Shown here piece after piece: positions 5,461 to 27,673 of a stretch of DNA of 32,000 nucleotides; positions within the stretch are counted from its first letter, which is position 1; every line of letters begins with the position of its first letter. Below the pieces are notes generated by a model. That model was not told where the DNA came from, searched no databases, and saw nothing but the letters and a program-made list of their open reading frames with translations. The stretch lies in the NCBI RefSeq assembly GCF_043194755.1, contig NZ_JBAFVV010000006.1; one strand, given 5' to 3'. The position numbers and the translations under genes are program-made. Source of the stretch: Xanthobacter autotrophicus DSM 431. Its GTDB lineage: Bacteria; Pseudomonadota; Alphaproteobacteria; Rhizobiales; Xanthobacteraceae.

Positions 5461-5518
5461 TTGACGGGCGCCCTCGATGGGAATAATAATTACACGGATC
5501 GCGTCGATATGTCCATAT
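5461..5518 (+). promoter_or_regulatory. putative brxR/BREX promoter plus two short palindromes (candidate BrxR operator)
   Basis: TTGACG (5461-5466), 18-nt spacer, AATAAT (5485-5490), in the only AT-rich stretch of the 5428-5555 divergent intergenic region. Downstream palindromes are ATCG-CGT-CGAT (5498-5508) and ATATG-TC-CATAT (5507-5518). Sequence pattern only. Confidence 0.25.
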
Positions 5519-5555
5519 ACTTTTTATGCCCATCGGCGCACGGAGGCGGAAAGCG

Positions 5556-6479
5556 ATGCTGGAAGGCGCTACGGCGTTGAAATGGGGTGTGGAGCGCCGG
5601 CTCGAGTTCATCGAGTTCCGGCTGTTCTGGGAGGGCGGGGTCAATCGCTCCGACATCATCGAGATGTTCGACGTGTCCGTACCCCAGGCATCGAAGGATC
5701 TGACGCTCTATCAGGAGCGCGCGCCTCAGAACGCCATCTACGACAAGAGCGCGAAACGCTATGTCGTGAGCGCGCAGTTCTCCCCGATTTTCCTGAAGCC
5801 CGATCCCGACGGTTATCTGTCCCGCCTGCGCTCCCTCGCCGAGGGTCTCACCGAGCCAAGCGAGTCCTGGATCGCGCATCCGCCCCAGACTGATATAGCC
5901 TTGACGCCGCGACGCGAGGTCGATTCAGGCGTGTTGCAGGCGATCCTCGGCGCGGTTCGCGAATACCGTTCGATCGATGTCCATTACCAATCGATGAGCG
6001 GCAAACGAGCCGACCCCATGTGGCGCCGGATGACGCCGCACGCTTTCGGCTATGACGGCCTGCGCTGGCACGCGCGCGCCTATTGTCACATCGACAATAA
6101 GTTCAAGGATTTCCTGCTGCCTCGGGTCCTCGGCGTGCGCGACATGGATGCTCCCGGACCCGGCGGCGATCAGGATACATTGTGGCAGGAGACTTTCGAC
6201 ATCGAGATCGGTCCGCATCCTCGTCTGACACCGAGCCAGCGCGCGGTGGTGGCAAAGGACTATGGGATGAGGAAGGAGCGGGCCGTTTTGACGGTGCGCT
6301 ACGCGATGCTCTTTTATGTTCTCAAGCGCCTTGGCCTACTCGGCGACGCTAGTCAGCAGGATCCCCGCACCCAGCATATTGTTGCCCTCAACGCCGCTGA
6401 GACGGCACGCGCCCTGAAGCGCGCTGACTTCGAAATTGAGGAAACAGAGCAAGCTCCAAAGGTCAGGGGGAGCGCTTGA
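5556..6479 (+). CDS. brxR: BrxR-type wHTH-WYL transcriptional regulator of BREX
   Basis: The N-terminus KWGVERRLEFIEFRLFWEGGVNRSDIIEMFDVSVPQASKDL matches my recollection of the BrxR winged-HTH. A central WYL-like region follows (HYQSMSG...WRRMTPHAFGYDGLRWHARAYC). I prefer ATG 5556 (GGAGG at 5542-5546) over the track's 5526, which has no Shine-Dalgarno. The stop overlaps the brxA start (TGATG). Confidence 0.8.
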   Translation: MLEGATALKWGVERRLEFIEFRLFWEGGVNRSDIIEMFDVSVPQASKDLTLYQERAPQNAIYDKSAKRYVVSAQFSPIFLKPDPDGYLSRLRSLAEGLTEPSESWIAHPPQTDIALTPRREVDSGVLQAILGAVREYRSIDVHYQSMSGKRADPMWRRMTPHAFGYDGLRWHARAYCHIDNKFKDFLLPRVLGVRDMDAPGPGGDQDTLWQETFDIEIGPHPRLTPSQRAVVAKDYGMRKERAVLTVRYAMLFYVLKRLGLLGDASQQDPRTQHIVALNAAETARALKRADFEIEETEQAPKVRGSA

Positions 6480-7096
6480 TGGAGAGGTCGGAACAGCGCC
6501 CCTATCTTATGTCCTTTGGAACGGGCGGCCTCTTCATCAACGAAAGCGTGGCCGTTGCTCGACTGCACGTCGCCGGCGCCGATTGGGATTCGACATTGGT
6601 CGCCGCGCAAGAGAACGGCGCATTCCCGGTCCGCAAGGCAAGTTCGGCGCGGCGCTCGATCCGGGAGATCGTCAACCGCTTGAAGCATCTGTCTCCGGAT
6701 GAGCTGGCGCTTTTCAAAGAAGGGAACCGGAGCGAGCAGGCCGCTCTTCTGTGGCTCGCAGCCTGCCGCGCGTACAGGTTCATCGGCGAATTCGCGGTTG
6801 AGGTGCTCAGCGACAGGTTCCTGTCGTTGCGGACCGACCTTAGCTATGACGATTTCGATGCGTTCCTGGCCGCTAAGGAGGAATGGTCTCCGAAGCTCGC
6901 GGCGCTATCGGCATCGACACGCGCCAAACTTCGCGCCGTGCTCTTCCGCCTGATGCGGGAGGCTGAGGTCTTGTCACAGGATAACCGGATCCTCGGGGCG
7001 ATGTTGTCGCCGCGCGTGTTGGCCGTGATCCAGGCCAGCAACCCCGATGAACTTCGCTACTTCCCCGGTGCAGAGCGACAGTTGGGGAGGCGATAA
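6479..7096 (+). CDS. brxA: BREX protein BrxA (DUF1819-like)
   Basis: About 205 aa, and first in the conserved brxA-brxB-brxC order. Size and position are typical. ATG 6479 is preferred over the in-frame TTG at 6476. Confidence 0.75.
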   Translation: MERSEQRPYLMSFGTGGLFINESVAVARLHVAGADWDSTLVAAQENGAFPVRKASSARRSIREIVNRLKHLSPDELALFKEGNRSEQAALLWLAACRAYRFIGEFAVEVLSDRFLSLRTDLSYDDFDAFLAAKEEWSPKLAALSASTRAKLRAVLFRLMREAEVLSQDNRILGAMLSPRVLAVIQASNPDELRYFPGAERQLGRR

Positions 7097-7098
7097 CG

Positions 7099-7710
7099 AT
7101 GTCGCGAACGAGTGGGACGGCAAGCCCCAAGGATCGCTTCGATCACCTCCTGAAGGTGGTCGCGAGCGAGCGCTTTCTGAAGAAGCAGGGCCTCGGCAAC
7201 GAGGTGCCATTCTTCATCTGCCCCTATCCAGCCGACGAGGCCGTCGCCATGGAGGCGATGCGCGCCAGCCTCGTGAAGCAACTTGGAAACCGAGGCGTGC
7301 GCGTGATCGAGATCAATCTCTACGATCTCAGCATCGCCTTGCTGCGCGATCGTGGCATCTGGGATGAGGTTCTCGCCGCAGAAAACAGCATCAGGAAGGA
7401 CGAGCTGAAAGAGCTTCTTCAAGGGGTTCTCGATCCCGAAACGCATCTCGTTCCTGAAATCGGCGCACGGCTCTCAAGCGAGGAGTTCGATGTCCTGTTT
7501 TTGTCGGGAGTCGGTGAGGTCTATCCCTATATCCGGTCCCACAATGTGTTGAACAACCTCCAGAGCACCGCCAAGGAAAAGCCGACGGTGATGTTCTTCC
7601 CTGGGAAATACACGCACAGCCTGGCCACAGGAGCATCGCTCGATTTGTTCGGAATCCTGCACGACGACAAATATTACCGGGCATTCGACATAACACACTA
7701 CGAGATCTGA
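7099..7710 (+). CDS. brxB: BREX protein BrxB (DUF1788-like)
   Basis: 203 aa. It starts 2 nt after the brxA stop with a GGGGAGG Shine-Dalgarno (7084-7090). Position and size fit type 1 BREX. Confidence 0.75.
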   Translation: MSRTSGTASPKDRFDHLLKVVASERFLKKQGLGNEVPFFICPYPADEAVAMEAMRASLVKQLGNRGVRVIEINLYDLSIALLRDRGIWDEVLAAENSIRKDELKELLQGVLDPETHLVPEIGARLSSEEFDVLFLSGVGEVYPYIRSHNVLNNLQSTAKEKPTVMFFPGKYTHSLATGASLDLFGILHDDKYYRAFDITHYEI

Positions 7711-7717
7711 GGGGGGC

Positions 7718-10700
7718 ATGACCAAACTTCGCGACATTTTTGAGAAACCTGTCGATCGCGCGATCGAGGGGGTCATCAAGGCGGATGACGAGGCCAGCCT
7801 TCGGGTCGAACTCGAGGAGTATGTCATCACCAACGAGATCGAGCGTCAGTTCGAAAGGTTCCTCGATGCCTACAACAATTATGGGACGGCCAACGGCGTC
7901 TGGATCTCCGGCTTCTTCGGGTCGGGCAAGTCACACCTACTAAAAATGCTGGCGCTCCTTCTGGAGAACCGGGACGTGGGCGGAAGCCCAGCCTATGAGC
8001 TTTTCAAGCAGAAGTGCGCTCACAATGAGATTCTCGCAGCCGATCTGCGGAAGGCCGTTTCGATCCCGTCCAAGAGCATTCTGTTCAACATCGATCAGAA
8101 GGCCGATGTGATCTCGAAGGAGCAGATCGACGCCTTACTTTCTGTGTTCCACAAAGTCTTCGACGAAATGTGCGGCTACTACGGCAAGCAGCCTCACATT
8201 GCTCAGTTCGAACGTGATCTGGACAGCCGCGGCCTGCTCGACACGTTCAAGGCGGCATACCAGCCCATCGCCGGTAAGCCCTGGGACCGCGGGCGCGAAC
8301 AGGCTCTGTTGGAGAATGCGAACGTGGCCAAAGCCTATGCGCAGGCCACTGGCGCTGATCTATCCGAGGGACAGGGCATCCTGACGCGGTATCGTCAGGA
8401 TTTCCGGTCATCGATCGAGGATTTCGCCGACAAGGTGAAGGCCTATATCGACGCGCAGAAGCCGGGCTTCCGGCTCAACTTTTTCGTCGACGAAGTCGGC
8501 CAGTATATTGCCGATAACATCAAGCTCATGACGAACCTGCAGACGATCGCGGAAAGCCTGAACACCAAGTGCCGCGGCCGGGCCTGGATCATCGTAACGG
8601 CGCAGCAGGACATGGGCTCCGTCATCGGCGACATGGACAAGCGGCAGGAGAATGACTTCTCCAAGATTCAGGCGCGCTTTGCGAATAGGATGCCGCTCAA
8701 CAGCGCCGATGTCGCTGAAGTGATTCAGAAGCGCCTGCTCAAGAAGACCGACGCCGGCATCGAGGCGCTGTCCGCTCTCTACCACCGCGAGTCGAACAAT
8801 CTGAAGACCCTGTTCGACTTTTCGGATGGCTCAATCCGGCTCGAGAACTTCCGGGACCGCGATCATTTCATTCACAGCTATCCATTCATCCCGTACCAGT
8901 ATCCGCTGTTTCAGTTGGCGATCCAGAACCTGTCCCAACACAACGCTTTCGAGGGCAAGCACAGTTCGGTCGGAGAGCGTTCTATGCTGGGCGTCTTCCA
9001 GGAGGTCGCGGTCAGGCTCGCCGATATTCCGCTCGGCGGTTTCGCGACCTTCGCCCAGATGTTCGAGGGCATCCGCACAGCGCTCAAATCGAACGTCCAG
9101 CAGTCGATCCTGATTGCCGAGAAGAATCTCGGCGACGAGTTCGCCACGCGGATCCTGAAAGCCCTGTTCCTGATCAAATATGTCAAGGCGTTTAAGCCGA
9201 CGGCCCGAAACGTCGCTATCCTGATGCTCGACAGGTTCGACACGGACTTGGCGAAGCACAAGCGGCGTGTCGATGAGGCGCTCAGCCTGCTCGAGCAGAA
9301 CACCTATATCCAGCGAAATGGCGAGCTGTTCGAGTTCCTGACCGATGAGGAGAAGGACGTCGAACAGGAGATCAAGGCGATCGAGGTCGATACGGCCGAG
9401 ATCGCCAAGGAGCTGGAGACCCTGATCTTCGACGGGGTCATCAAGAGCCGGAAGCTGCGGCACGAGGCGTCATCTCAGGATTATTCTTTCGCGCGCTATC
9501 TCGATGACCGGCTGCTCGGGCGCGACTACGAGCTTGCGATCAATGTCATCACGCCATTCCACGAGCAGAGCGGAAACGCCGAGGCGATCGCGATGCGCAC
9601 GATGTCGAGGGACGAGCTTGCCATCGTCCTGACCGCCGACAGCCGCTTCGTGAGCGACCTGATGATGTTTAAGCGGACGGACAAATATGTCCGACAGGCC
9701 CGCGCAGTGACGCAGCAACCGGCCATCGAACGCATCATCCGTGAGAAGGGCGAACAAAACAGCGGCCGGCAGCGTGATCTAACGCTCAAGGCCCGCTCGT
9801 TGGTGGGCGAGGCCCGACTTTTCGTGCGGGGGGAGGAGATCGAGGTTCGGTCGGAGGATCCGCAGGCCAGAATCGAACGTGCGTTTCAGACCCTCGTAGA
9901 CAAGGTCCATGTCAATCTCGGCATGCTGCGTGGCGTAGCTTACTCCGAGAACGAGATCGGCAAGTTTCTCACGCATGGTAATGACGGCATGTTCGGTGAG
10001 GGCGCGGCCAATCTGACGGAGGCCGAGCAGGAGATACTCAACTACGCACAGGCAAACGCCCGCAACGGCATCCGGACGACGGTCAAGGCCGTCGTTGAAC
10101 GGTTTGAGCGCAAGCCTTACGGCTGGTCCTACACCGCGATCCTCTGCACCACGGCCAGCCTACTTGGCCGCGGCAAGATCGAGGCACGTTCGGACGGAAG
10201 CCCATTGGAGGGCGAGGCTCTGCAACGGAGCCTCCAAAACGCCCATGCCCTGGGCAATATCGTGCTCGAACTGCAGGTGGAGTTCACGCCAGCGCAGACG
10301 CGCAAGCTCAAGGAGTTCTATCGCGAGTTTTTCGACGCGCAGCCGGCCGGCTCCGAGGGCAAGGCGCTCGGGATTGAAACGGCCGAGGCCTTTGGTGCGC
10401 TCAAGAATGAGCTCGCGGTTCTGGAAGCACAGTCGTCACGTTATCCGTTTCTTGCCGCGCTGGGCAGCGTTCAGGAGGCGGTGCGCGAGGTCACGAGCAA
10501 GCCCTACGCCTGGTATCTACTGGAACTTGGCCGCCATGAGGATCGGCTGCTTGATCTGAAGGAAAGCATTCTCGACCCGATCCGTCGCTTCATGGGTGGA
10601 GCACAGAAAGCGATCTATGACGAGGCGCGGGCCTATTTGTCCGACCAGAGTGCCAATTTCGGCTATGGCGGCGACGAGACGGCCAACGCTATCCAGGTGG

Positions 10701-11257
10701 TTCTAGACGATCCGAACTGCTTCAAGGGCAATACCATCCAGCAGATAAAGGGCACGCTCGATGCTCTGAAAGCCGACGTCGATACCTGGATCGCGACAGA
10801 GCGCAAGACGGCGCTTTCCAACGTGGAAGAGCTTCGAGAGAAGTTACGGGCGCTCCCCGAATTCGCCTCCCTCACGGATTTCGATCGCCGAGATGTCGAG
10901 GCTACCTTTACAGGCATTCTGGAGACAGTCGCCAACAGCAAGCTGATCGCGGTGATCCGCGAGCGTGTGAGCGGATTCAGGTCATCCGTCTATCCGGCGC
11001 TGCTCGGTCGCGTAACGGCGCCTCCTCCTCCGCCAGCCGCACAGAAGGGTGATGGAGAGGCTGAACGGCAGGGTTTCAGGGATGCCGTAAGCTCGCCGCC
11101 GCCGCCCGCCCAACCCGAGTACGTGGCTGCCAGCGCGCTGCGCGTCACGTATGCCAAGGCGTATCTCGCCGATGAGCGGGATGTCGATGCTTATCTGGAC
11201 ACCCTGCGCGAGACGTTGGTTGCGGAGATCCGCGCGGGCAAGCGGGTCACTGTGTGA
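7718..11257 (+). CDS. brxC: BREX ATPase BrxC/PglY (1179 aa)
   Basis: Walker A GFFGSGKSHLLK near the N-terminus and Walker B-like FFVDEVGQY. The size and position are those of BrxC. A G6-containing Shine-Dalgarno sits at 7709-7716. Confidence 0.9.
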   Translation: MTKLRDIFEKPVDRAIEGVIKADDEASLRVELEEYVITNEIERQFERFLDAYNNYGTANGVWISGFFGSGKSHLLKMLALLLENRDVGGSPAYELFKQKCAHNEILAADLRKAVSIPSKSILFNIDQKADVISKEQIDALLSVFHKVFDEMCGYYGKQPHIAQFERDLDSRGLLDTFKAAYQPIAGKPWDRGREQALLENANVAKAYAQATGADLSEGQGILTRYRQDFRSSIEDFADKVKAYIDAQKPGFRLNFFVDEVGQYIADNIKLMTNLQTIAESLNTKCRGRAWIIVTAQQDMGSVIGDMDKRQENDFSKIQARFANRMPLNSADVAEVIQKRLLKKTDAGIEALSALYHRESNNLKTLFDFSDGSIRLENFRDRDHFIHSYPFIPYQYPLFQLAIQNLSQHNAFEGKHSSVGERSMLGVFQEVAVRLADIPLGGFATFAQMFEGIRTALKSNVQQSILIAEKNLGDEFATRILKALFLIKYVKAFKPTARNVAILMLDRFDTDLAKHKRRVDEALSLLEQNTYIQRNGELFEFLTDEEKDVEQEIKAIEVDTAEIAKELETLIFDGVIKSRKLRHEASSQDYSFARYLDDRLLGRDYELAINVITPFHEQSGNAEAIAMRTMSRDELAIVLTADSRFVSDLMMFKRTDKYVRQARAVTQQPAIERIIREKGEQNSGRQRDLTLKARSLVGEARLFVRGEEIEVRSEDPQARIERAFQTLVDKVHVNLGMLRGVAYSENEIGKFLTHGNDGMFGEGAANLTEAEQEILNYAQANARNGIRTTVKAVVERFERKPYGWSYTAILCTTASLLGRGKIEARSDGSPLEGEALQRSLQNAHALGNIVLELQVEFTPAQTRKLKEFYREFFDAQPAGSEGKALGIETAEAFGALKNELAVLEAQSSRYPFLAALGSVQEAVREVTSKPYAWYLLELGRHEDRLLDLKESILDPIRRFMGGAQKAIYDEARAYLSDQSANFGYGGDETANAIQVVLDDPNCFKGNTIQQIKGTLDALKADVDTWIATERKTALSNVEELREKLRALPEFASLTDFDRRDVEATFTGILETVANSKLIAVIRERVSGFRSSVYPALLGRVTAPPPPPAAQKGDGEAERQGFRDAVSSPPPPAQPEYVAASALRVTYAKAYLADERDVDAYLDTLRETLVAEIRAGKRVTV

Positions 11258-12432
11258 TGATCGCTAGCGTCGAGATTCAGAGCTTCACGGCGTTCGGGAA
11301 TTTGGAAGTCTCGCTCTCCCCGCGCGTAAACGTAATCATAGGTTCGAACGGGACCGGGAAAACACATCTCCTGAAAGCGATCTACGCCCTTGCGATCGCT
11401 GACCAGCCTTCATCGAACGAAGAGCGTTCCAGAAAGGAGCAGGAAACAGACATATCGAAGAAGTTCTTGCGCCTGTTCTCACCTGAGGAGAACAAGATCG
11501 GCGCATTGCGAGCCAACGGTTCGAAAGCGCCGACCCGGCTGAGCCTGAAGCGCAGCGATGACACTAGCGTGGCAATCTCATTCGCCAGCAATTCCAAGGT
11601 CGCTCGGATCGAGAAGGATGCCGAGCCGGACGGGCATGAAGCGCGGCCGGTGTTCATTCCGACCAAGGAGATCCTGTCGCTCGTCCGTGGCATGCGCCAC
11701 CCAGAGCATGATCGCGCAACCGTCGAGATGATTTTCGACGACACCTACATCGACCTCGCGGAACTCCTCGTCCGCCCCGGCTTCGAGGACGAGGCTTCGA
11801 GCCTCAACGAGGATCCCAGGCTTTCGAGCATTGTCCGTGAATTGGTCGGCCTGGTCGGCGGGCGCTATCGCTGGGCGAGCGACGGGGCCTTCCGTTTCGA
11901 GTCGGGGAGCTACGAGGAGAAAGCCGACCCGGCCCGGTCGAAGTCAACGACGGCCCAGGCATATCAGGATTCCACCGTCGTCCGGTTCGTCCCGAAAGGC
12001 GGGCAATCGCTCTCGAGCAGCATGACCGCTGAGGGATACAGAAAAATCGGCGTGCTGCACAGATTGCTCTGCAACGGCTCGATCAACCCCGGCACCACCG
12101 GCGTTCTCCTGTGGGACGAGCCAGAGGCGAACCTGAATCCGAGACTGATGAAGAAGCTCGTTCAGGTTCTCCTGGAGCTATCGCGCAACGGCCAGCAGAT
12201 CGTCCTCGCCACCCACGACTATGTCCTTCTGAAGTGGTTCGATTTGCTCATGGAAAAGGGCAAAGAGGACCATGTTCGGTTCCATGTACTTGTTAGAGAA
12301 GAAGGTAGTGAGGGGATGTCCGTTCACTCCACTGACGATTACGCGCAGCTGGTGAACACAGGAATAGCGAAGACTTTCAGTGAGTTGTACGACGCTGAAA
12401 TCGAGCGCTCGTTGGAGGGCGTTGCGCTATGA
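11257..12432 (+). CDS. ABC/SMC-like (AAA_15/AAA_21-type) ATPase inserted in the BREX operon
   Basis: Walker A GSNGTGKTH (nt 11341-11367). Walker B/D-loop VLLWDEPEANLNP (about 12103-12141). H-loop LATHD. About 230 aa separate Walker A from Walker B. The start is ATG 11257 or GTG 11254, either of which overlaps the brxC TGA (11255-11257). Confidence 0.85.
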   Translation: MIASVEIQSFTAFGNLEVSLSPRVNVIIGSNGTGKTHLLKAIYALAIADQPSSNEERSRKEQETDISKKFLRLFSPEENKIGALRANGSKAPTRLSLKRSDDTSVAISFASNSKVARIEKDAEPDGHEARPVFIPTKEILSLVRGMRHPEHDRATVEMIFDDTYIDLAELLVRPGFEDEASSLNEDPRLSSIVRELVGLVGGRYRWASDGAFRFESGSYEEKADPARSKSTTAQAYQDSTVVRFVPKGGQSLSSSMTAEGYRKIGVLHRLLCNGSINPGTTGVLLWDEPEANLNPRLMKKLVQVLLELSRNGQQIVLATHDYVLLKWFDLLMEKGKEDHVRFHVLVREEGSEGMSVHSTDDYAQLVNTGIAKTFSELYDAEIERSLEGVAL

Positions 12433-12932
12433 TAACGGTGCAAGAGTTTGATCTGGAAATTGCCTTTCCAGAGGCAAAGGCAGTCATTCATTTCGACGAT
12501 AACGATTATCACGTCAACAGCACCATTCAGCGCGTCGACTTCATCGCGGAGTATGAAGATCGTCACGTCTTTGTTGAAATAAAAGATCCTGACAATCCCG
12601 TCGCGCAGAATGTGCCGGCTTTTGAAGGAAAGCTGAATTCTGGCAAGCTGGTACAAAGCCTGTCCGGCAAGTTCCGAGACACGCTTTTCTTCCGCTCCAT
12701 CCAAGGAAAGCACGACTTGAGCGTGGTCTATGTTGTGCTGCTTTCAATGAAGAAGCTGGACGCAGCCCTGCTGCTGACAAAGCAGGATGAGCTAAGAAAG
12801 TCGATCCCCATACGGCACGCCGATTGGGCGCGCGATTGCGCGGCAAGCTGCATCATTTTGAACGTTGAGCAATGGAAGAAGCGGTTTGGTGATCAATCAA
12901 TCCGGCGGATCAGTGAAGGGGCGGCGGTTTGA
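12429..12932 (+). CDS. small (167 aa) putative PD-(D/E)XK-fold nuclease, partner of the upstream ATPase
   Basis: D37-x12-E50-x-K52 within RVDFIAEYEDRHVFVEIKD (nt 12534-12587) resembles the Hjc/restriction-endonuclease core. ATGA overlap with the ATPase stop, and the TGA overlaps the pglX ATG (TGATG, 12930-12934). Hand-counted GC is about 47%. Confidence 0.6.
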   Translation: MITVQEFDLEIAFPEAKAVIHFDDNDYHVNSTIQRVDFIAEYEDRHVFVEIKDPDNPVAQNVPAFEGKLNSGKLVQSLSGKFRDTLFFRSIQGKHDLSVVYVVLLSMKKLDAALLLTKQDELRKSIPIRHADWARDCAASCIILNVEQWKKRFGDQSIRRISEGAAV

Positions 12933-15900
12933 TGGATACCTCGAAGCTCAAGAAGTTCGCGCAGTTCGCGCGTCGCACCTTGATCGGACAGGTCGGTGCC
13001 AAGCTGGACTCCGTTCTCGCGGAAGGGGCCGCGGCCCGGCGCGAGCATCCGGAGGCGATGAAGAAGCTCGAAGCGGCCATTGGTCGGGACGGCAAGAGCC
13101 AGGTGATCGAGCGGGTCGCCTACATCTGGTTCAACCGCTTCTCCGCTTTGCGCTTCATGGACGTGAACGATTTCAATCCGGTTCGCGTCGTCTCACCCCT
13201 GGTTGGCCAGTTCCAGCCCGAAATCCTAGCCGAGGCCAAGGCCGGTAATATCGACGAGGATCGCGTGCCCGAGAAGGTGCGTGGCCAAATCCGCGCCTTG
13301 CTGGATGGCCGCACGCCCAGCCCAGACGCGCAGGCAGAAGCCTATCGGCTGCTGCTCGTCGCCATCTGCAACGATTGGCACAAGGTGATGCCGTTCCTGT
13401 TCGAGCGGATCGACGACTTCACCGAGCTGCTCTTGCCTGAGGACCTGCTGTCGAACGCCTCGATCCTCGCCTACACGCGCGAGGCGATGACGCCCGATGT
13501 CTGCCAGGATGTTGAGGTTATCGGGTGGCTCTATCAGTTCTACATATCCGAGAAGAAGGATGAGGTCTTCGCGGGGCTCAAGAAGAGCGTGAAAATCTCG
13601 GCCGAGAATATTCCGGCCGCCACGCAGTTGTTCACGCCCCATTGGATCGTGCGTTACCTGGTCGAGAATTCGCTTGGGCGGCTCTGGATGCTCAACCGGC
13701 CCAACTCCAGGCTAAGGGAGCGGATGGACTACTACATAGCGCCGGTAGAGCCGGAGACGGACTTCCTCCGCCTCTCGTCGCCGGAGGAAATCAAGGTCTG
13801 CGATCCCGCCTGCGGATCGGGGCACATGCTGACCTATGCCTTCGACCTCCTTCACGCGATCTACGAGGAAGAAGGCTATGACTCGGTCGAGATCCCGGGC
13901 CTGATCCTGGCTAACAATCTCTACGGCATCGAGATAGACGAACGCGCCGGGGCGCTGGCGGCGTTCGCCCTGACAATGAAGGCGGCTGCGCGTCGCAAGC
14001 GGTTCCTGCGGCGATCTGGCAAGGACGGCGTGCAGCCCAACATCTGTGTTCTGGAGAACGTCAGTCTAAAGGACGACGAGCTAGCTGACTATGTGAAGGA
14101 GATAGGGCGCGAGCTCTTCACTACGGACCTACGCGAGACGCTCGGTCAGTTCGAACAAGCGAAGAACTTCGGCTCGCTGATCGTCCCCAACCTCAAGGAT
14201 GCGGACAAGCTAGTTCGGGTGATCGCCGAGAAGCAGTTCGAGAACAACCTGTTCCTACGCGATGTCCACGAGCGCGTGCAGGTTGCGCTACGCATGGCCG
14301 GCTATCTGAGTCCCAAGTACCATGTTGTGATAGCTAACCCGCCGTACATGGGCAGAAAGAACATGAACCCCTCTCTTCAGCGATATGTTGTGGAGAAGTA
14401 TAAGGAGAGTTCTGGAGATTTCTTTGCCACATTTATTGAAAGATGCTTGGCGCTCAAAACGGCGTCTGGGTTTGTGTCCATGATTTCGATGGACAGTTGG
14501 ATGTTCGGGGATGACTACACTGGATTTAGAGGGCAGGTGCTATCTAGGTTCGAAATTGAATGTCTGATTCACCTCGGGCCACATGCATTCGACGAAATAA
14601 AGGGAGAAGTCGTCCAGGTTGCGGCTTTCGTGTTGAGGGATAGGGGGCAAGATAAGATCGTCGGTACTTTTGTTGATTTAACACGGCAGCCAAACTCCGG
14701 ATCCAAAGAGGCGGCGTTTTTGGCCGGAGAGGGGAGGTATTACGTTGACTCCGCTGAATTTGATGATCTGCCGCGGAACGTATTTGCCTATTTCATATCA
14801 GAACATACAAGGTCCGCATTCAAGAACGGAATTCCGCTAAGAGAGATCGCAGAGGCGTTCACAGGGTTGCAAACCGGAGACAATCCTCGCTTCATTCGCT
14901 CGTGGAGCGAGGTCAGCTTCAATGAAATTGACTTCGCTAGACGTCCGAACTCGGAGGTAGAACCGCGAAGCAGCAAGTGGGTTCCATACGTAAAAGGTAG
15001 TGAGTTTCGTAAGTGGTATGGTAATCACGAGTTTGTGCTAGACTGGAGTAATAATGGGGAACAGATTAAGTCCCATAATAGCGCAACGGTTCGCAACCAG
15101 CAGTACTACTTTCGATCGGGATTGGCCTACAACAATATATCAGCCAAGCTCTCGCTGAGATCCGTTGGATATGGTCATATATTTGACCAAAAGAATTCAA
15201 TGTTCTTTGCGGATGTCGATGCGGATGCAAAATTCGCAATGGCATACCTGCATTCGAAAACCACCCCTCCTTTTCTGAGGGTTGTTGCTCCTAAGGATTT
15301 TGGTCCTGGCTCGATGAAACTGCTCCCTGTGATGCAGAACTACGGGGAGTTTTATTCAGTGACAGAAATTGCTGACGCAGCAACTGCCATTGCTCGGGGC
15401 GATTGGGACGCCTACGAGACGTCTTGGGATTTCGCAAGACTGCCTCTCTTGTCCCCCGATGATCGGTCTGGGACGCTGGAAAGCACCTACGCTCGCCTGC
15501 GCGCGCATTGGCGTGGCATGGCAGAGGAGATGCAGCGTCTGGAGGAAGAGAATAACCGCATCTTCATCGACGCCTATGGTTTGCAGGATGAGCTGACGCC
15601 TGAAGTGCCGCTGGAGGAGATTACGCTTACCTGCAATCCTGCCTACCGTTATGGCGGTCAGAAGGCCGCCCCCGAGTTGGAGGCGTTGCTGCTCGCCGAC
15701 ACGATGCGCGAGTTCGTTTCCTATGCTGTGGGCTGCATGTTCGGCCGCTACAGTCTCGATGCGTCCGGCCTCGTCCTCGCCAATCAGGGCCAAGGGCGGG
15801 AGGACTATCGCGCCAAAATCCCGAACCCGACCTTCGAGCCAGACGCCGACAATGTGATCCCGGTGCTCGATGGCGAGTGGTTCGTCGACGACATCGCCGC

Positions 15901-16429
15901 GCGTTTTCGGCGCTTCCTGCGCGTCACTTTTGGGGAAGAGTTTTTCCAGGAGAACCTCGCCTTTGTCGAAGGGGCGCTCGGCAAGGACATTCGGAAGTAC
16001 TTAACCCGCGACTTCTTCAACGATCATGTGAAGCGATATAAGAAGCGACCCATTTACTGGCTGTTCTCGAGCCCGAAGGGCACGTTCAACGCGCTGATCT
16101 ATATGCACCGCTACCGCTCCGACACGGTGAGCGTGGTGCTAAACGACTATCTGCGGGAGTTTCGGTCCAAGCTCGAGGCTTATCGCCGAGCGCAGGAAGC
16201 GCTCAGCATCAGTGGGGACACTTCGCCCGCGCAGAAGACCAAAGCTCTGAAGGAGATCGAGGCGACAGCAAGACAGATCGAGGAAATCGATGCCTGGGAG
16301 CGCGATGTCCTGTTCCCATTGGCGACGCAGAAGATCGAGATCGACCTCGATGACGGCGTGAAGGCCAATTATCCGAAGCTCGGTGCGGCCCTGAAGCCCA
16401 TCAAGGGCCTCAACGAGTCGGACGACTGA
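12932..16429 (+). CDS. pglX: BREX adenine-specific DNA methyltransferase PglX
   Basis: 1165 aa. SAM-binding motif I is DPACGSGHML. Catalytic motif IV, NPPY, lies at nt 14336-14347 (residues 469-472). The N-terminus is typical of PglX. It is followed by pglZ 2 nt later. Confidence 0.9.
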   Translation: MDTSKLKKFAQFARRTLIGQVGAKLDSVLAEGAAARREHPEAMKKLEAAIGRDGKSQVIERVAYIWFNRFSALRFMDVNDFNPVRVVSPLVGQFQPEILAEAKAGNIDEDRVPEKVRGQIRALLDGRTPSPDAQAEAYRLLLVAICNDWHKVMPFLFERIDDFTELLLPEDLLSNASILAYTREAMTPDVCQDVEVIGWLYQFYISEKKDEVFAGLKKSVKISAENIPAATQLFTPHWIVRYLVENSLGRLWMLNRPNSRLRERMDYYIAPVEPETDFLRLSSPEEIKVCDPACGSGHMLTYAFDLLHAIYEEEGYDSVEIPGLILANNLYGIEIDERAGALAAFALTMKAAARRKRFLRRSGKDGVQPNICVLENVSLKDDELADYVKEIGRELFTTDLRETLGQFEQAKNFGSLIVPNLKDADKLVRVIAEKQFENNLFLRDVHERVQVALRMAGYLSPKYHVVIANPPYMGRKNMNPSLQRYVVEKYKESSGDFFATFIERCLALKTASGFVSMISMDSWMFGDDYTGFRGQVLSRFEIECLIHLGPHAFDEIKGEVVQVAAFVLRDRGQDKIVGTFVDLTRQPNSGSKEAAFLAGEGRYYVDSAEFDDLPRNVFAYFISEHTRSAFKNGIPLREIAEAFTGLQTGDNPRFIRSWSEVSFNEIDFARRPNSEVEPRSSKWVPYVKGSEFRKWYGNHEFVLDWSNNGEQIKSHNSATVRNQQYYFRSGLAYNNISAKLSLRSVGYGHIFDQKNSMFFADVDADAKFAMAYLHSKTTPPFLRVVAPKDFGPGSMKLLPVMQNYGEFYSVTEIADAATAIARGDWDAYETSWDFARLPLLSPDDRSGTLESTYARLRAHWRGMAEEMQRLEEENNRIFIDAYGLQDELTPEVPLEEITLTCNPAYRYGGQKAAPELEALLLADTMREFVSYAVGCMFGRYSLDASGLVLANQGQGREDYRAKIPNPTFEPDADNVIPVLDGEWFVDDIAARFRRFLRVTFGEEFFQENLAFVEGALGKDIRKYLTRDFFNDHVKRYKKRPIYWLFSSPKGTFNALIYMHRYRSDTVSVVLNDYLREFRSKLEAYRRAQEALSISGDTSPAQKTKALKEIEATARQIEEIDAWERDVLFPLATQKIEIDLDDGVKANYPKLGAALKPIKGLNESDD

Positions 16430-16431
16430 GT

Positions 16432-18933
16432 ATGCAGGACCGAATCGCCAAGGGGCTCGATGCTCAATTCGACAAGCACCGGATCGTCTTCTGGTACGAT
16501 CCGGCGCACGAATTTCGCAAGGCGTTCGAAGGGTTGGCGCTCGATGGCGTCGAGAAGATCGAGGTGGCGAACACCGAGTTCGCGGTGAAGCACCGCATCC
16601 TGCGGGAAGAGCCGAAGCGGCGCTTTCTGCTCTATCGAGAGGGGCCGCGGCCGGATGACGTCGACAACTGGCTGCTCGACGTCGAGCTGGCGCATGGGGT
16701 GTTCAAGACCGATCAGGTCGCGATCTGGCTGGCGGACCTGGGATTGCCGATCAGCTTCGAGAATCTTGCACGCGAGCACCAGGAGTTCTTTCGGTCCAAC
16801 CGTCGGTTGGAGAAGCTAAAAGCCATTATTCGTGGAGACGATACCAAGCCCAAGCTGCGTCTGAGGATGCTTGGGGTATGCGCCGGGGCTGACGGTGACT
16901 TCGACACTGTCGTCGAGGCGCTGTTGGGAGAGCTAACCGTGGGCAAGGACGACAGCTTGCGGCTGATTGGCCGTGTCGGCCTCAGCGAGTTCCTCTGGGA
17001 TCAGATGTTGCGGATCTTCGGCTACCGCGCCGACAAGCCGAGCATCGGCGATTTCGCGATCACGCTGTTCAAGTCCTGCTATCAGAACGCGGTCGGGGGC
17101 GAAGCGATCCTGACTCCCGAGGCTTTAGGGTTCTTCCGTCGCTGGAAGAACAATCGGAACGCCGAGGAGGCCTTCGCGACGTTATCGGCTGAGTATGCCG
17201 ACGCGTTGGGTGTAGCGCAGGATCTCGCCAAACGTGACTTCCGAGCCCTGATCGAAGTGGACTATTTTGAGGAGGTCGATCGCGCGATCATCCGTGCGCT
17301 GGTCCACGAGGTCGGCAGCCAGACCGTGGCGCAGGCCGATGTCTTGAACTGGATCCGCCAGCGCCGGCAGAGCCATTGGTACGATTCCTATCGCGATCTG
17401 TACGAGGCGATCGGCTTTGCCGCCGAGTTTCAGCAGGCGATGGCGCAGGTGACACTCGGCATAACCAGCCTCGCGGAAGGAGTCGAGCGCTATGCGAAGA
17501 GCTGGTTTCGGATCGACCAGCTCTATCGGAAATTCATCTGGCGCATGCAGGGATCCGGGCAGGCGACGCTGATGCGCGAGCTGTTCGAGCAGGTCGAAAA
17601 TCACTACGTCAATAGCTACCTATTGCGTCTGAACGACGCTTGGCAGACGCATGTGGACGCGGCGGAGTCATGGTCGGCGCCGCCAGTTCCTGCGCAGCGG
17701 AGCTTCTACCGGGACCATGTGGGTGAGTTCCGCCGCCGCGATCAGAAGATCTGCGTCATCATTTCCGACGCGCTTCGCTACGAAGTCGCCGAGGAGCTGT
17801 TAGGCCGCATTCGCAGCCTTGACCGATACGAGGCGGGGATCGAGCCGATGTTCGGGAGCCTGCCGAGCTACACCCAGCTCGGAATGGCGTCGCTGCTGCC
17901 CAATGGGGATCTGCAGATTGCCGACAACGATAGCGGCACGGTCCTGGTGAACGGTCAGAGTTCACAAGGTCTAGAGAACCGCAGGAAGATCCTGGCGACC
18001 GGGCGGGCCGGCGATAGGACGACGGCTGTGAAGGCCGAGGACCTGATGGGCATGGACAAGGATCAGGCCCGCGCGCTCGTCCGAGATCACGACGTCGTCT
18101 ATGTCTACCACAATCTGATCGATGCGATCGGCGACAAGCAAGTGTCTGAGGATCGCGTCTTCGAGGCTGCCGAGGATACGATCGAGGAGATCGTCAGAGT
18201 GGTCAAAAAACTCAACGGCGCCAACGCCAACAATCTGATCGTAACGTCCGATCACGGTTTCATCTACCAGCACCGGCCGATCGAGGAGAGCGACTTCTCT
18301 TCGGCTCAAGTAGAGGGTGACACGATCCTTTTCCGCGACCGGAGGTTCATCCTGGGGCGCGGCCTGAAGGGTAATCGCGGTCTGCGGCGCTTCACGCCGG
18401 AGCAGGCGAGCCTCGAAGGTTCGGTGGAAATGCTGATACCCAAGTCGATTAACCGGTTGCGCCGCCAGGGCTCGGGGAGTCGGTTCGTGCATGGCGGCGC
18501 GACCCTTCAGGAAATCGTCGTCCCGGTCGTCAAAATCAACAAGAAGCGTCAGAGCGACACTTCGGCGGTCGAAGTCGAGATCATCGGAAGCACCAACCAG
18601 TTGATCACGTCGAGCCAAATCTCGGTTCGCTTCTATCAGGTCGCCGCCGTCACGGAGAAAACCCAGGCCCGCACGCTGAGAGCCGGCATTTACGCACTAT
18701 CGGGCGAGTTGATCTCCGACAGCCATGAACTGGTCTTCGATTTCCGATCCGAGAACGCTCGCGAGCGCGAAGTCGCGGTTCGTTTCCTGCTGCTACGCCA
18801 GGCGGATGCATTCAACGGCCAGGAGGTCATCCTGAAGCTGGAGGAACGGCACGGCGATACATCCCACTTCAGGGAATACCGCACGGCTCGCTACACGCTC
18901 CGCCGCAGCTTCTCGAACGACTTCGATTTTTGA
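16432..18933 (+). CDS. pglZ: BREX alkaline-phosphatase-superfamily protein PglZ
   Basis: 833 aa with PglZ-type motifs VIISDALRYEVAEEL and LIVTSDHGFIYQ. It sits in the conserved position between pglX and brxL. Confidence 0.9.
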   Translation: MQDRIAKGLDAQFDKHRIVFWYDPAHEFRKAFEGLALDGVEKIEVANTEFAVKHRILREEPKRRFLLYREGPRPDDVDNWLLDVELAHGVFKTDQVAIWLADLGLPISFENLAREHQEFFRSNRRLEKLKAIIRGDDTKPKLRLRMLGVCAGADGDFDTVVEALLGELTVGKDDSLRLIGRVGLSEFLWDQMLRIFGYRADKPSIGDFAITLFKSCYQNAVGGEAILTPEALGFFRRWKNNRNAEEAFATLSAEYADALGVAQDLAKRDFRALIEVDYFEEVDRAIIRALVHEVGSQTVAQADVLNWIRQRRQSHWYDSYRDLYEAIGFAAEFQQAMAQVTLGITSLAEGVERYAKSWFRIDQLYRKFIWRMQGSGQATLMRELFEQVENHYVNSYLLRLNDAWQTHVDAAESWSAPPVPAQRSFYRDHVGEFRRRDQKICVIISDALRYEVAEELLGRIRSLDRYEAGIEPMFGSLPSYTQLGMASLLPNGDLQIADNDSGTVLVNGQSSQGLENRRKILATGRAGDRTTAVKAEDLMGMDKDQARALVRDHDVVYVYHNLIDAIGDKQVSEDRVFEAAEDTIEEIVRVVKKLNGANANNLIVTSDHGFIYQHRPIEESDFSSAQVEGDTILFRDRRFILGRGLKGNRGLRRFTPEQASLEGSVEMLIPKSINRLRRQGSGSRFVHGGATLQEIVVPVVKINKKRQSDTSAVEVEIIGSTNQLITSSQISVRFYQVAAVTEKTQARTLRAGIYALSGELISDSHELVFDFRSENAREREVAVRFLLLRQADAFNGQEVILKLEERHGDTSHFREYRTARYTLRRSFSNDFDF

Positions 18934-18944
18934 GGGGGGGAGCG

Positions 18945-25289: not shown

Positions 25290-25323
25290 CAGTCGAACGC
25301 TCTACCAACTGAGCTATCAGGGA
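25248..25323 (-). tRNA. tRNA-Asn (anticodon GTT), 76 nt with encoded CCA
   Basis: Folded by hand from the reverse complement. Acceptor stem TCCCTGA/TCAGGGA. Anticodon stem TTCGA/TCGAA with loop CTGTTAA. T-arm GCAGG-TTCGAGT-CCTGC. Discriminator G followed by CCA. Confidence 0.9.
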
Positions 25324-27599: not shown

Positions 27600-27673
27600 T
27601 GGAGGCCACGCCCGGAATCGAACCGGGGTGCACGGATTTGCAGTCCGCTGCGTAACCACTCCGCCACGTGGCC
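27600..27673 (-). tRNA. tRNA-Cys (anticodon GCA), 74 nt with encoded CCA
   Basis: Folded by hand. Acceptor stem GGCCACG/CGTGGCC. Anticodon stem GCGGA/TCCGT with loop CTGCAAA. T-arm CCCGG-TTCGATT-CCGGG. Discriminator T followed by CCA. Confidence 0.88.

What the first reader, a model, noticed from the sequence alone, without database searches (positions are those of the whole stretch)
11254..12932. ABC-type ATPase plus minimal PD-(D/E)XK nuclease cassette spliced into the BREX operon between brxC and pglX
Canonical type 1 BREX is brxA-brxB-brxC-pglX-pglZ-brxL. Here two extra genes sit between brxC and pglX.

Gene 1 (392 aa) has Walker A GSNGTGKTH, Walker B/D-loop VLLWDEPEANLNP and H-loop LATHD, with about 230 aa inserted between the two Walker motifs. 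This is the AAA_15/AAA_21 ABC/SMC-like architecture used by the ATPase subunits of several defence systems, such as PARIS AriA, Septu PtuA and OLD/Gabija-type proteins.

Gene 2 (167 aa) carries D37-x12-E50-x-K52 (VDFIAEYEDRHVFVEIKD). That is an Hjc/restriction-endonuclease-like core. It is not the TOPRIM partner of PARIS/OLD and not the HNH partner of Septu, so I cannot place the pair in a named family from memory.

All three junctions overlap: GTGATG at 11254-11259, ATGA at 12429-12432 and TGATG at 12930-12934. The cassette is therefore translationally coupled into the BREX operon on both sides rather than sitting beside it.

Gene 2 and the 3' end of gene 1 are about 47% GC in hand-counted lines, against about 60% for BREX and about 70% for the flanks. 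This points to a separate and probably recent acquisition.

As I recall, accessory defence genes embedded in type 1 BREX loci are already known, for example the GmrSD-type BrxU on pEFER and a PARIS pair in a Salmonella BREX locus. That makes this position a plausible hotspot.
Basis: partly seen in the sequence, partly recalled or inferred. Interest (0 to 1): 0.85.

Follow-up and report, generated by a model that had tools for sequence, protein, structure and literature searches.

The report
Known HEC-02 defence pair inside BREX
The two extra genes between brxC and pglX are a real ATPase-plus-nuclease anti-phage cassette, but one already catalogued as "HEC-02" and already reported inside BREX loci, so the finding is correct but not new.

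Summary
Two overlapping genes (11257-12432, 391 aa; 12429-12932, 167 aa) sit between brxC and pglX of a complete type 1 BREX operon.

Both match PADLOC's HEC-02 models end to end (HEC-02A E 1.7e-104; HEC-02B E 9.5e-61). HEC-02 is an ABC ATPase plus a NERD-like PD-(D/E)xK nuclease. Payne et al. (bioRxiv 2024) showed that a Dickeya representative blocks phages and needs both genes. A 2026 NAR survey reports OLD-type ABC ATPases paired with PD-(D/E)XK nucleases inside BREX loci. This refutes the novelty claim.

"Recent acquisition" is not supported as stated:
- All 37 genome relatives of gene 2 with at least 40% identity occupy this same slot.
- The ATPase co-diverges with BrxC.
- Even so, the closest BREX relative (Sinorhizobium plasmid, BrxC 91%) lacks the cassette, so it is dispensable and is lost or exchanged.

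What I did not find described in the papers consulted:
- It has been swapped between otherwise about 80-90% identical loci.
- At least four nuclease types occur in this slot.

The trigger and substrate are unknown. The window's proteins are only 29% and 26% identical to the tested pair.

The parts
11257..12432 (+). Gene 1: HEC-02A, an OLD/PARIS-like ABC ATPase (391 aa from ATG 11257; alternative GTG at 11254)
   Evidence: PADLOC PDLC04213 HEC-02A, E 1.7e-104, full length. Pfam AAA_21 3.3e-23 and AAA_15 9.4e-18. AF2 model pLDDT 69 / pTM 0.75; Foldseek top hits are PtuA, SMC and Rad50 heads, and OLD.
11341..11367 (+). Walker A / P-loop GSNGTGKTH
   Evidence: Read from the sequence. G29, N31-T36 are invariant in 27 homologues.
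12022..12045 (+). Signature-like motif MTAEGYRK (ABC 'C-loop' position)
   Evidence: M256-G260, R262 and K263 are invariant. The assignment as the signature motif is inferred from its position upstream of Walker B.
12103..12141 (+). Walker B + D-loop VLLWDEPEANLNP
   Evidence: W286-E290 and N292-P295 are invariant.
12205..12219 (+). H-loop LATHD
   Evidence: L317-D321 are invariant.
12240..12931 (+). Exchangeable effector module: the last ~60 codons of gene 1 plus all of gene 2. Low GC (0.51).
   Evidence: Nucleotide identity of the window (and L011) to L080 is 0.76-0.87 up to ~12220, 0.37-0.54 from ~12265 to ~12900, and 0.81 again from 12907. GC steps from 0.63 to 0.47 at 12220. The ATPase tail (aa 326-391) is 0.72 identical between loci with the same nuclease type and 0.44 between loci with different types, at similar core identity.
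12429..12932 (+). Gene 2: HEC-02B, a small stand-alone PD-(D/E)xK (NERD-like) nuclease, 167 aa
   Evidence: PADLOC PDLC04220 HEC-02B, E 9.5e-61, full length. AF2 pLDDT 87.6 / pTM 0.85. Foldseek top hit is the R.BspD6I small subunit (E 3.6e-4), then Nt.BspD6I, Hjc and XisH. No Pfam hit.
12537..12584 (+). Catalytic core D37-x12-E50-x-K52 (VDFIAEYEDRHVFVEIK)
   Evidence: Invariant in 28 homologues down to 48% identity. Kept in all four nuclease types. D lies at the start of one strand and ExK in the next strand of the model.
5526..11257 (+). Upstream half of the type 1 BREX operon: brxR (WYL) 5526-6479, brxA 6476-7096, brxB 7099-7710, brxC 7718-11257
   Evidence: Pfam and PADLOC. The only promoter-like site in the operon region is at 5461-5490, upstream of brxR.
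12932..21014 (+). Downstream half of BREX: pglX 12932-16429, pglZ 16432-18933, brxL 18930-21014
   Evidence: Pfam and PADLOC.

Best explanation
The two genes are a HEC-02-type two-gene anti-phage module. Gene 1 is an OLD/PARIS-like ABC ATPase (HEC-02A). Gene 2 is a small stand-alone PD-(D/E)xK, NERD-like nuclease (HEC-02B). The pair sits in the brxC|pglX slot of a type 1 BREX operon.

Shown here:
- Family identity.
- Intact catalytic motifs in both proteins.
- Obligate A-then-B pairing in essentially all relatives.
- Operon integration by overlapping stop and start codons.
- Dispensability for an intact BREX, because sister loci lack the cassette.
- Long-term residence of this clade in this one slot.
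- Recombinational exchange of an 'ATPase tail + nuclease' unit.

Inferred from the tested Dickeya HEC-02 pair and from the solved PARIS and Septu systems:
- The ATPase oligomer acts as sensor and regulator and holds the nuclease inactive through its C-terminal tail.
- A phage cue changes the ATPase state and licenses the nuclease to cut nucleic acid, either by stopping infection directly or by abortive infection.
- The module works on its own as a second layer and is simply co-expressed with BREX.

The trigger and the substrate (DNA, or RNA/tRNA) are unknown.
For: Family and structure:
- PADLOC gives full-length best hits to HEC-02A and HEC-02B.
- Payne et al.: HEC-02 is ABC ATPase + NERD-like PD-(D/E)xK, it defends E. 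coli and both genes are required. Their Table S8 merges a cassette they found embedded in BREX, DISARM or type I RM systems (347 occurrences) into the HEC-02 model.
- PMC12839542 reports OLD-ABC + PD-(D/E)XK REase modules embedded in BREX.
- Motifs are intact and invariant. Folds agree.

Pairing and position:
- A precedes B in 64 of 66 genome loci. 37 of these are in BREX-1 between brxC and pglX, 4 are in BREX-3 and others stand alone.
- Junctions are tight in most loci.

Independence from BREX:
- Cassette-free but otherwise intact sister BREX loci exist: L077 (BrxC 91%) and L078 (84%).

Tail-nuclease coupling.
Against: - The tested Dickeya pair is distant: A 29% identity, B 26% over 90 aa; hhalign probability 81.5% over residues 1-86 only.
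- I found no experiment on this BREX-embedded subfamily in the papers searched.
- Gene 2 has no Pfam hit, NERD included, even at E<=10, and no sequence hit in the PDB. Its best structural match has a TM of only 0.43.
- The gene 1 model is only moderately confident (pLDDT 69), with four disordered stretches.
- Nothing here shows an A-B complex, a trigger or a substrate.
- Exclusive residence of this clade in the BREX-1 slot would also fit a BREX-dependent role.
Confidence: 0.78

Rival explanations
1. BREX-dependent guard or backup. The cassette does not act alone. It either senses inhibition of BREX (for example by Ocr-like DNA mimics that bind PglX, as PARIS does), or it is recruited to DNA lesions made by BREX (PglZ nicks) and finishes the degradation.
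For: - All 37 close relatives of gene 2 lie in the same BREX-1 slot, across at least seven phyla-level groups.
- The ATPase co-diverges with BrxC (Mantel rho 0.62, p 0.001).
- Translational coupling on both sides.
- Precedents and proposals in the literature: PARIS/Ocr and PrrC/EcoprrI.
Against: - More distant HEC-02 pairs stand alone among housekeeping genes, or sit in BREX-3 and Hma systems.
- The Dickeya pair was cloned and tested as a candidate system with its own promoter region, apart from its surrounding Hma system.
- Co-divergence can be mere linkage.
- Embedded PARIS in Salmonella BREX showed no Ocr response and no effect on methylation.
Confidence: 0.15
2. Integral BREX subunit. In this BREX lineage the pair supplies a nuclease/ATPase activity that BREX itself needs for restriction or methylation.
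For: It sits in the middle of the operon and shares overlapping stop and start codons with brxC and pglX. The position is conserved in many loci.
Against: - The closest relatives of this very BREX (L077 at 88% nt; L078) have all six genes intact and no cassette, with brxC abutting pglX.
- 16 of 66 related loci have an empty slot, and others carry unrelated cassettes there.
- Canonical BREX-1 works without it (established knowledge).
Confidence: 0.03
3. One reading: a foreign cassette recently spliced into this BREX locus from outside, as shown by its low GC.
For: - GC is 0.51 for 12240-12931 against 0.58-0.60 for BREX.
- A cassette-free sister locus exists, with homology breaking exactly at the brxC stop.
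Against: - The low GC of gene 2 relative to BrxC/PglZ recurs in nearly all 37 loci, at host GC from 0.37 to 0.62.
- The gene 1 core has BREX-like GC (0.595).
- Window and L011 are collinear at ~79% identity across the cassette, and L160 at 85-95%.
- The L077 difference also covers most of pglX (11259-15392). That looks like allelic exchange between BREX loci, not an insertion.
- What is plausibly recent is exchange of the tail+nuclease unit.
Confidence: 0.04

Closest known systems
HEC-02 (PADLOC; Payne et al., bioRxiv 10.1101/2024.01.29.577857), tested pair from Dickeya dianthicola NCPPB 3534
   Same: - Same two-gene architecture: an ABC ATPase followed by a ~170-aa PD-(D/E)xK protein.
- Both window proteins hit the HEC-02 HMMs over their full length.
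- Same D...ExK core.
- Found embedded inside other defence operons.
- A cassette those authors found embedded in BREX, DISARM or type I RM systems was folded into the HEC-02 model.
   Different: - Only 29% (A) and 26% (B, N-terminal half) identical to the tested pair.
- The ATPase is ~50 aa longer, through an insert at aa ~177-236.
- The host system is BREX-1, not Hma.
- I found no test of this subfamily in the papers searched.
OLD-ABC + PD-(D/E)XK REase 'backup effector' modules in BREX (PMC12839542, NAR 2026; earlier Krishnan et al. 2020, as cited there)
   Same: This is the class described there: OLD-family ABC ATPases paired with REase, HNH or PIN instead of TOPRIM, embedded in BREX core loci in 594 taxa.
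   Different: That work is a comparative survey. In the passages I read it does not describe the tail+nuclease exchange or the slot occupancy reported here.
PARIS (AriA/AriB), including the copy embedded in Salmonella D23580 BREX
   Same: - An ABC ATPase of the same broad clade (AriA HMMs at E 2e-24) plus a separate small nuclease.
- Embedded in BREX.
- The solved mechanism is the best working model: an ATPase scaffold releases the nuclease on a phage trigger.
   Different: - The partner is PD-(D/E)xK, not TOPRIM/DUF4435.
- The AriA match is much weaker than the HEC-02A match.
- No evidence that Ocr is the trigger.
Septu (PtuA/PtuB) and retron-associated PtuAB
   Same: The closest solved structures to the gene 1 model are PtuA chains (8sux, 8eea, 9n69). 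The ATPase + nuclease logic is the same.
   Different: PtuB is an HNH nuclease. Sequence similarity is confined to the P-loop region. TM is only ~0.45.
PrrC within EcoprrI, and PD-T4-4/PDC-M47 pairs
   Same: These are ABC-ATPase-based effectors nested inside a modification-based system. PD-T4-4/PDC-M47 pairs occupy the same brxC|pglX slot in other loci, and in L068 sit in tandem with HEC-02.
   Different: They have different effector domains and different ATPase subfamilies.

Membership tests
HEC-02 (PADLOC candidate/validated system) | Protein matching the HEC-02A ABC-ATPase model | tested here: met
   PDLC04213, E 1.7e-104, residues 1-388 on profile 1-335/337
HEC-02 (PADLOC candidate/validated system) | Protein matching the HEC-02B model | tested here: met
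   PDLC04220, E 9.5e-61, residues 1-164 on profile 1-170/172, plus nine further HEC-02B models
HEC-02 (PADLOC candidate/validated system) | A and B adjacent, on the same strand, A first | tested here: met
   ATGA overlap at 12429-12432. Same order in 64 of 66 genome loci.
HEC-02 (PADLOC candidate/validated system) | (D/E/Q)xK catalytic signature in B | tested here: met
   D37, E50 and K52 are invariant and kept in all four B types
HEC-02 (PADLOC candidate/validated system) | B resembles the NERD domain (PF08378) | tested here: inconclusive
HEC-02 (PADLOC candidate/validated system) | Anti-phage activity that requires both genes | not testable with these tools
   Shown only for the Dickeya pair, which is 29% / 26% identical
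ABC ATPase (OLD/SMC-like clade) | Walker A, signature-like motif, Walker B, D-loop and H-loop in order, with an ABC head fold | tested here: met
   Motifs. Foldseek E ~1e-12 to PtuA, SMC, Rad50 and OLD heads.
PARIS (AriAB) | TOPRIM (DUF4435) AriB partner | tested here: not met
   Gene 2 hits only HEC-02B models and has a PD-(D/E)xK fold
Septu (PtuAB) | HNH nuclease PtuB partner | tested here: not met
   No HNH. PtuA HMM hits are limited to residues 1-79.
Gabija / class OLD nucleases | TOPRIM domain fused to the ATPase | tested here: not met
   Gene 1 ends ~70 aa after the H-loop. GajA and Old HMM hits cover short stretches only.
Type 1 BREX (context) | brxA, brxB, brxC, pglX, pglZ and brxL in one operon | tested here: met
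   Pfam and PADLOC, E from 1e-41 to 0

The most novel reading that the evidence does not exclude
The BREX-1-resident HEC-02 clade is a diversifying, BREX-linked guard.
- The ATPase core is inherited with BrxC.
- The ATPase C-terminal tail (aa ~335-391), and probably the loop at aa ~221-240, together with the nuclease form a cognate 'effector plug'. Recombination swaps this plug between BREX loci, and at least four types exist.
- This would parallel target-recognition-domain shuffling in pglX or hsdS, driven by phage inhibitors of the nuclease or of the tail-nuclease contact.
- If the trigger is an anti-BREX protein, this would be a widespread PARIS-like counter-counter-defence with a different effector.

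The exchange itself is well supported here. The guard function and the arms-race reading are speculation.
Probability: 0.2. Interest if true: 0.6.

Novelty: already known. Interest (0 to 1): 0.3.

Why it matters
As a discovery it adds little. PADLOC would label this locus BREX type I with an embedded HEC-02, and both the pairing and its embedding in BREX are published.

It still matters in three smaller ways:
- It is a clean, compact natural example of a layered defence operon, and cassette-free sister loci are available as natural controls.
- This BREX-embedded subfamily is far from the only HEC-02 pair reported as tested (Dickeya), so its activity, trigger and substrate remain open.
- The mapped exchange unit (ATPase tail + nuclease) gives a specific, testable prediction for where the two proteins touch and how effector diversity arises.

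Tried and rejected
- Pfam on gene 2 and 27 homologues at E<=10: only noise.
- PDB sequence search with the gene 2 profile: no hit.
- Viral structure library: only weak nuclease- and helicase-like hits, TM <=0.42.
- Search for direct repeats flanking the cassette, or att repeats of tRNA-Asn inside the window: only short, chance-level families.
- Promoter scan: no promoter-like site near the cassette, and the counts do not exceed shuffles. This is weak support for co-transcription only.
- I suspected that close ATPase homologues in Bradyrhizobium and Methylocystis had a different partner, because they were missing from the gene 2 hit list. Rejected: L160 and L161 carry 94% and 85% identical gene 2 homologues. 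The gap came from the word-based search.
- I first read the identity correlations as simple co-divergence of the whole cassette with BREX. Revised after finding cassette-free sister loci and the weak BrxC-versus-nuclease Mantel correlation.
Full report

Yes. The ORF table and the sequence show two + strand ORFs between brxC (7718-11257) and pglX (12932-16429). They are 11254/11257-12432 and 12429-12932.

All three junctions overlap as described:
- TGATG at 11255-11259, with an alternative GTG at 11254.
- ATGA at 12429-12432.
- TGATG at 12930-12934.

Gene callers on identical metagenomic contigs start gene 1 at ATG 11257, giving 391 aa.

Pfam and PADLOC confirm a complete type 1 BREX around the pair, preceded by a WYL/BrxR regulator. 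The only promoter-like site in the operon region lies upstream of brxR. Good Shine-Dalgarno-like strings precede gene 2 (GGAGGG) and pglX (GAAGGGG) but not gene 1. That fits translational coupling of gene 1 to brxC.

The GC claim is roughly right:
- Gene 2 and the last ~190 nt of gene 1 are 0.51. Single 60-nt lines range 0.43-0.57.
- The gene 1 core is 0.595, BREX overall 0.58 and the flanks 0.69.

**2. What is it?**

Both proteins match PADLOC's HEC-02 models over their full length. HEC-02A scores E 1.7e-104 and HEC-02B scores E 9.5e-61. These are far better than the next families (AriA 2e-24; Old, GajA, PtuA, AbiLi and NsnB about 1e-13).

What HEC-02 is (bioRxiv 10.1101/2024.01.29.577857):
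- It stands for 'Hma-embedded candidate 02' of Payne et al.
- It is an ABC ATPase plus a NERD-like PD-(D/E)xK protein.
- The Dickeya dianthicola pair protected E. coli against several phages, and both genes were required.
- Their Table S8 lists a cassette they found embedded in BREX, DISARM or type I RM systems (347 occurrences) that was 'incorporated into the HEC-02 model'.

A 2026 NAR survey of BREX (PMC12839542) reports OLD-family ABC ATPases paired with PD-(D/E)XK REase, HNH or PIN instead of TOPRIM. It finds them embedded in BREX loci in 594 taxa and reads them as a backup effector layer. The kind, its name and its embedding in BREX are therefore already in the literature.

*Structure of gene 2:*
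- An AF2 model built on 28 homologues is confident (pLDDT 87.6, pTM 0.85).
- It places D37 at the start of one strand and E50-x-K52 in the next.
- Its best PDB matches are the small subunit of R.BspD6I (E 3.6e-4), the Nt.BspD6I nickase, Hjc resolvases, XisH and HamA. That is a restriction-endonuclease-like fold, though with a TM of only ~0.43.
- There is no Pfam hit, NERD included, for any homologue, and no PDB sequence hit.
- I call the fold PD-(D/E)xK and leave 'NERD' as not independently confirmed.

*Structure of gene 1:* the model is of moderate quality (pLDDT 69). It matches PtuA, SMC and Rad50 heads, and OLD at E ~1e-12.

*Family size:* the gene 2 family is small and always a stand-alone protein, typically ~165-185 aa. 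It has 671 clusters at 50% identity among 1.84 billion representatives.

The window's proteins are distant from the tested Dickeya pair. The ATPase is 29% identical over 366 aa. The nuclease is 26% identical over its first 90 aa, with hhalign probability 81.5%.

**3. Context elsewhere**

The exact gene 2 protein was read on 23 metagenomic contigs. The 10 places shown all have the same BREX arrangement.

A genome scan gave 66 loci with gene 2 relatives:
- In 64 an HEC-02A homologue lies immediately upstream.
- All 37 loci with at least 40% identity to gene 2 (L068, at 32%, also does) sit between brxC and pglX of a type 1 BREX. They come from Alpha-, Gamma- and Deltaproteobacteria, Verrucomicrobiota, Cloacimonadota, Spirochaetes and Chloroflexi.
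- Four more distant pairs sit in type 3 BREX. In L053 and L057 they lie between PglXI and PglZ.
- Others stand among housekeeping genes.

**4. History: not a simple recent insertion**

Gene 2 has lower GC than BrxC/PglZ in nearly all 37 loci, at host GC from 0.37 to 0.62. The dip is a family trait.

The window and Sphingobium quisquiliarum (L011) are collinear at ~79% nucleotide identity from upstream of brxR through the cassette into pglX. Bradyrhizobium L160 is 85-95% identical across it.

Even so, the closest BREX of all lacks the cassette. This is Sinorhizobium plasmid pSS05631d (L077; BrxC 91%, PglZ 92%). Mesorhizobium L078 lacks it too.
- Homology to L077 stops exactly at 11259.
- It returns weakly inside pglX at 13031 and fully at 15392.
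- The difference is therefore a block containing the cassette and most of pglX. That looks like allelic exchange between BREX loci rather than an insertion.
- Empty sites read ...TGATGGAT..., while the filled site has TGATG at both ends. Gain or loss of the cassette thus keeps the coupling seamless.

BREX evidently does not need the cassette.

**5. An exchange unit inside the cassette**

Over 56 BREX-1 loci, Mantel correlations of pairwise distances are:
- BrxC versus ATPase: 0.62 (p 0.001).
- BrxC versus nuclease: 0.17.
- ATPase versus nuclease: 0.24.

The nucleases fall into four types that are less than 45% identical to each other. Representatives of all four match HEC-02B models.

Some loci with 80% identical ATPases and 91% identical BrxC carry nucleases that are 31% identical, for example L011 versus L080. 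Sliding nucleotide identity of the window or L011 against L080 behaves as follows:
- 0.76-0.87 through the brxC 3' end and gene 1, up to ~12220.
- 0.37-0.54 from ~12265 to ~12900.
- 0.81 again from 12907, at the pglX start.

The left break coincides with the GC step (0.63 to 0.47 at 12220). It lies just after the H-loop.

At the protein level, I compared loci whose ATPase cores are at least 60% identical:
- The tail (aa 326-391) is 0.72 identical when the nuclease type is shared and 0.44 when it differs.
- A second spot at aa ~221-240 behaves the same way (0.61 versus 0.22).

I infer that the tail, and perhaps that loop, contacts the nuclease, and that 'tail + nuclease' moves as a cognate unit. 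I did not find it described in the papers I read.

**6. The slot is a hotspot**

I examined 66 metagenomic BREX-1 loci related to this pglX that keep both the brxC end and the pglX start:
- 16 have brxC abutting pglX and 50 carry an insert.
- 24 of the inserts are HEC-02-like.
- The rest include PD-T4-4/PDC-M47 pairs, Schlafen-AlbA_2/HATPase_c_4 proteins, PsyrTA, a Bro-N protein (PDC-S13), a PDDEXK_3 protein and a PIN protein.

Cassettes also stack. L068 has PDC-M47 plus HEC-02, and L027-L032 have a Schlafen-like gene plus HEC-02. A second slot, pglX|pglZ, holds HEC-06/GmrSD-like genes and IetAS.

The sample is biased towards relatives of this pglX, so the fractions are not general frequencies.

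**7. Mechanism**

Shown:
- Family membership, intact motifs and obligate pairing.
- Operon coupling.
- Dispensability for BREX.
- Tail-nuclease co-variation.

Inferred by analogy with the tested HEC-02 pair and the solved PARIS and Septu systems:
- An ATPase oligomer senses a phage cue and controls a nuclease that it otherwise sequesters.
- Cleavage of nucleic acid then blocks the infection.

I favour autonomous action with co-expression (0.78) over a BREX-dependent guard (0.15), for three reasons:
- Distant relatives stand alone.
- The Dickeya pair was cloned and tested as a candidate system with its own promoter region, apart from its surrounding Hma system.
- The embedded Salmonella PARIS did not affect BREX methylation.

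The exclusive BREX-1 residence of this clade keeps the guard model alive.

**8. Verdict**

The functional interpretation is largely right. The novelty and 'recent acquisition' claims are not supported.

Rating: already known, as a catalogued subfamily of HEC-02 / OLD-ABC + REase modules in BREX. Interest is 0.3. The remaining interest lies in the untested subfamily and the exchange unit.

Noticed in passing
window 23613-25289 (+) and 25248-25323 (-): A large serine recombinase (Resolvase + Recombinase + Zn_ribbon_recom) ends inside or next to a tRNA-Asn gene. GC rises from ~0.62 to ~0.70 just beyond it. The BREX island is probably an integrative element at tRNA-Asn. No att repeat was found inside the window, so the other end is unresolved.
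   Followed up: partly
window 2604-5261 (-), and a small ORF just upstream of brxR: An 885-aa PDDEXK_1 protein lies upstream of and divergent from brxR. It is conserved in the same position in Sinorhizobium, Mesorhizobium, Bradyrhizobium and Methylocystis-type loci, with a UvrD-like helicase beyond it in L078. This may be an AddAB-like companion system of this BREX lineage. Its GC (0.69) is that of the flanks, not of BREX.
   Followed up: no
window ~14200-15400 (inside pglX): The central part of pglX has low GC (0.49). It is the only BREX segment with no recognisable nucleotide homology to the closest relatives: L011, L077 and L078 all break at ~14200-14370 and resume at ~15400. PglX is 61-66% identical where the other BREX proteins are 78-93%. 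This is probably target-recognition-domain exchange.
   Followed up: partly
L017:4792-8766 and L017:10500-14021: Pacificibacter maritimus has two full-length pglX copies flanking the HEC-02 pair (brxC-pglX-A-B-pglX-pglZ). This may be an intermediate of the block exchange proposed here.
   Followed up: partly
L018, L022, L024, L034, L037, L039, L043 and others, between pglX and pglZ: A second embedding slot, pglX|pglZ, carries 1.1-4.2 kb inserts in many HEC-02-bearing BREX loci. Examples: a HEC-06/GmrSD-like gene plus a gene with weak Argonaute-associated/pAgo model hits in L024, and IetAS in L039.
   Followed up: partly
L048, L049, L053, L057: Distant HEC-02 pairs (31-34% identity to gene 2) are embedded in type 3 BREX. 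In L053 and L057 they lie between PglXI and PglZ. L053 also has a Schlafen-AlbA_2/Fic-like_C gene between BrxC and PglXI.
   Followed up: partly
window 18930-21014 (brxL), residues 545-691: BrxL carries a C-terminal MIT_C / phospholipase-D-like domain (PF16565, E 3e-38). This may be the HKD-type nuclease variant of BrxL mentioned in PMC12839542.
   Followed up: no
window 12459-12484 (+): A 9-bp-stem hairpin followed by a T-rich tail lies in the first 60 nt of gene 2 and was flagged by the terminator scan. Terminator-like sites are only mildly enriched over shuffles (23 versus 14), so it may be chance.
   Followed up: no
window 27600-27673 (-): A tRNA-Cys gene lies 2.3 kb beyond tRNA-Asn in the high-GC flank.
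   Followed up: no
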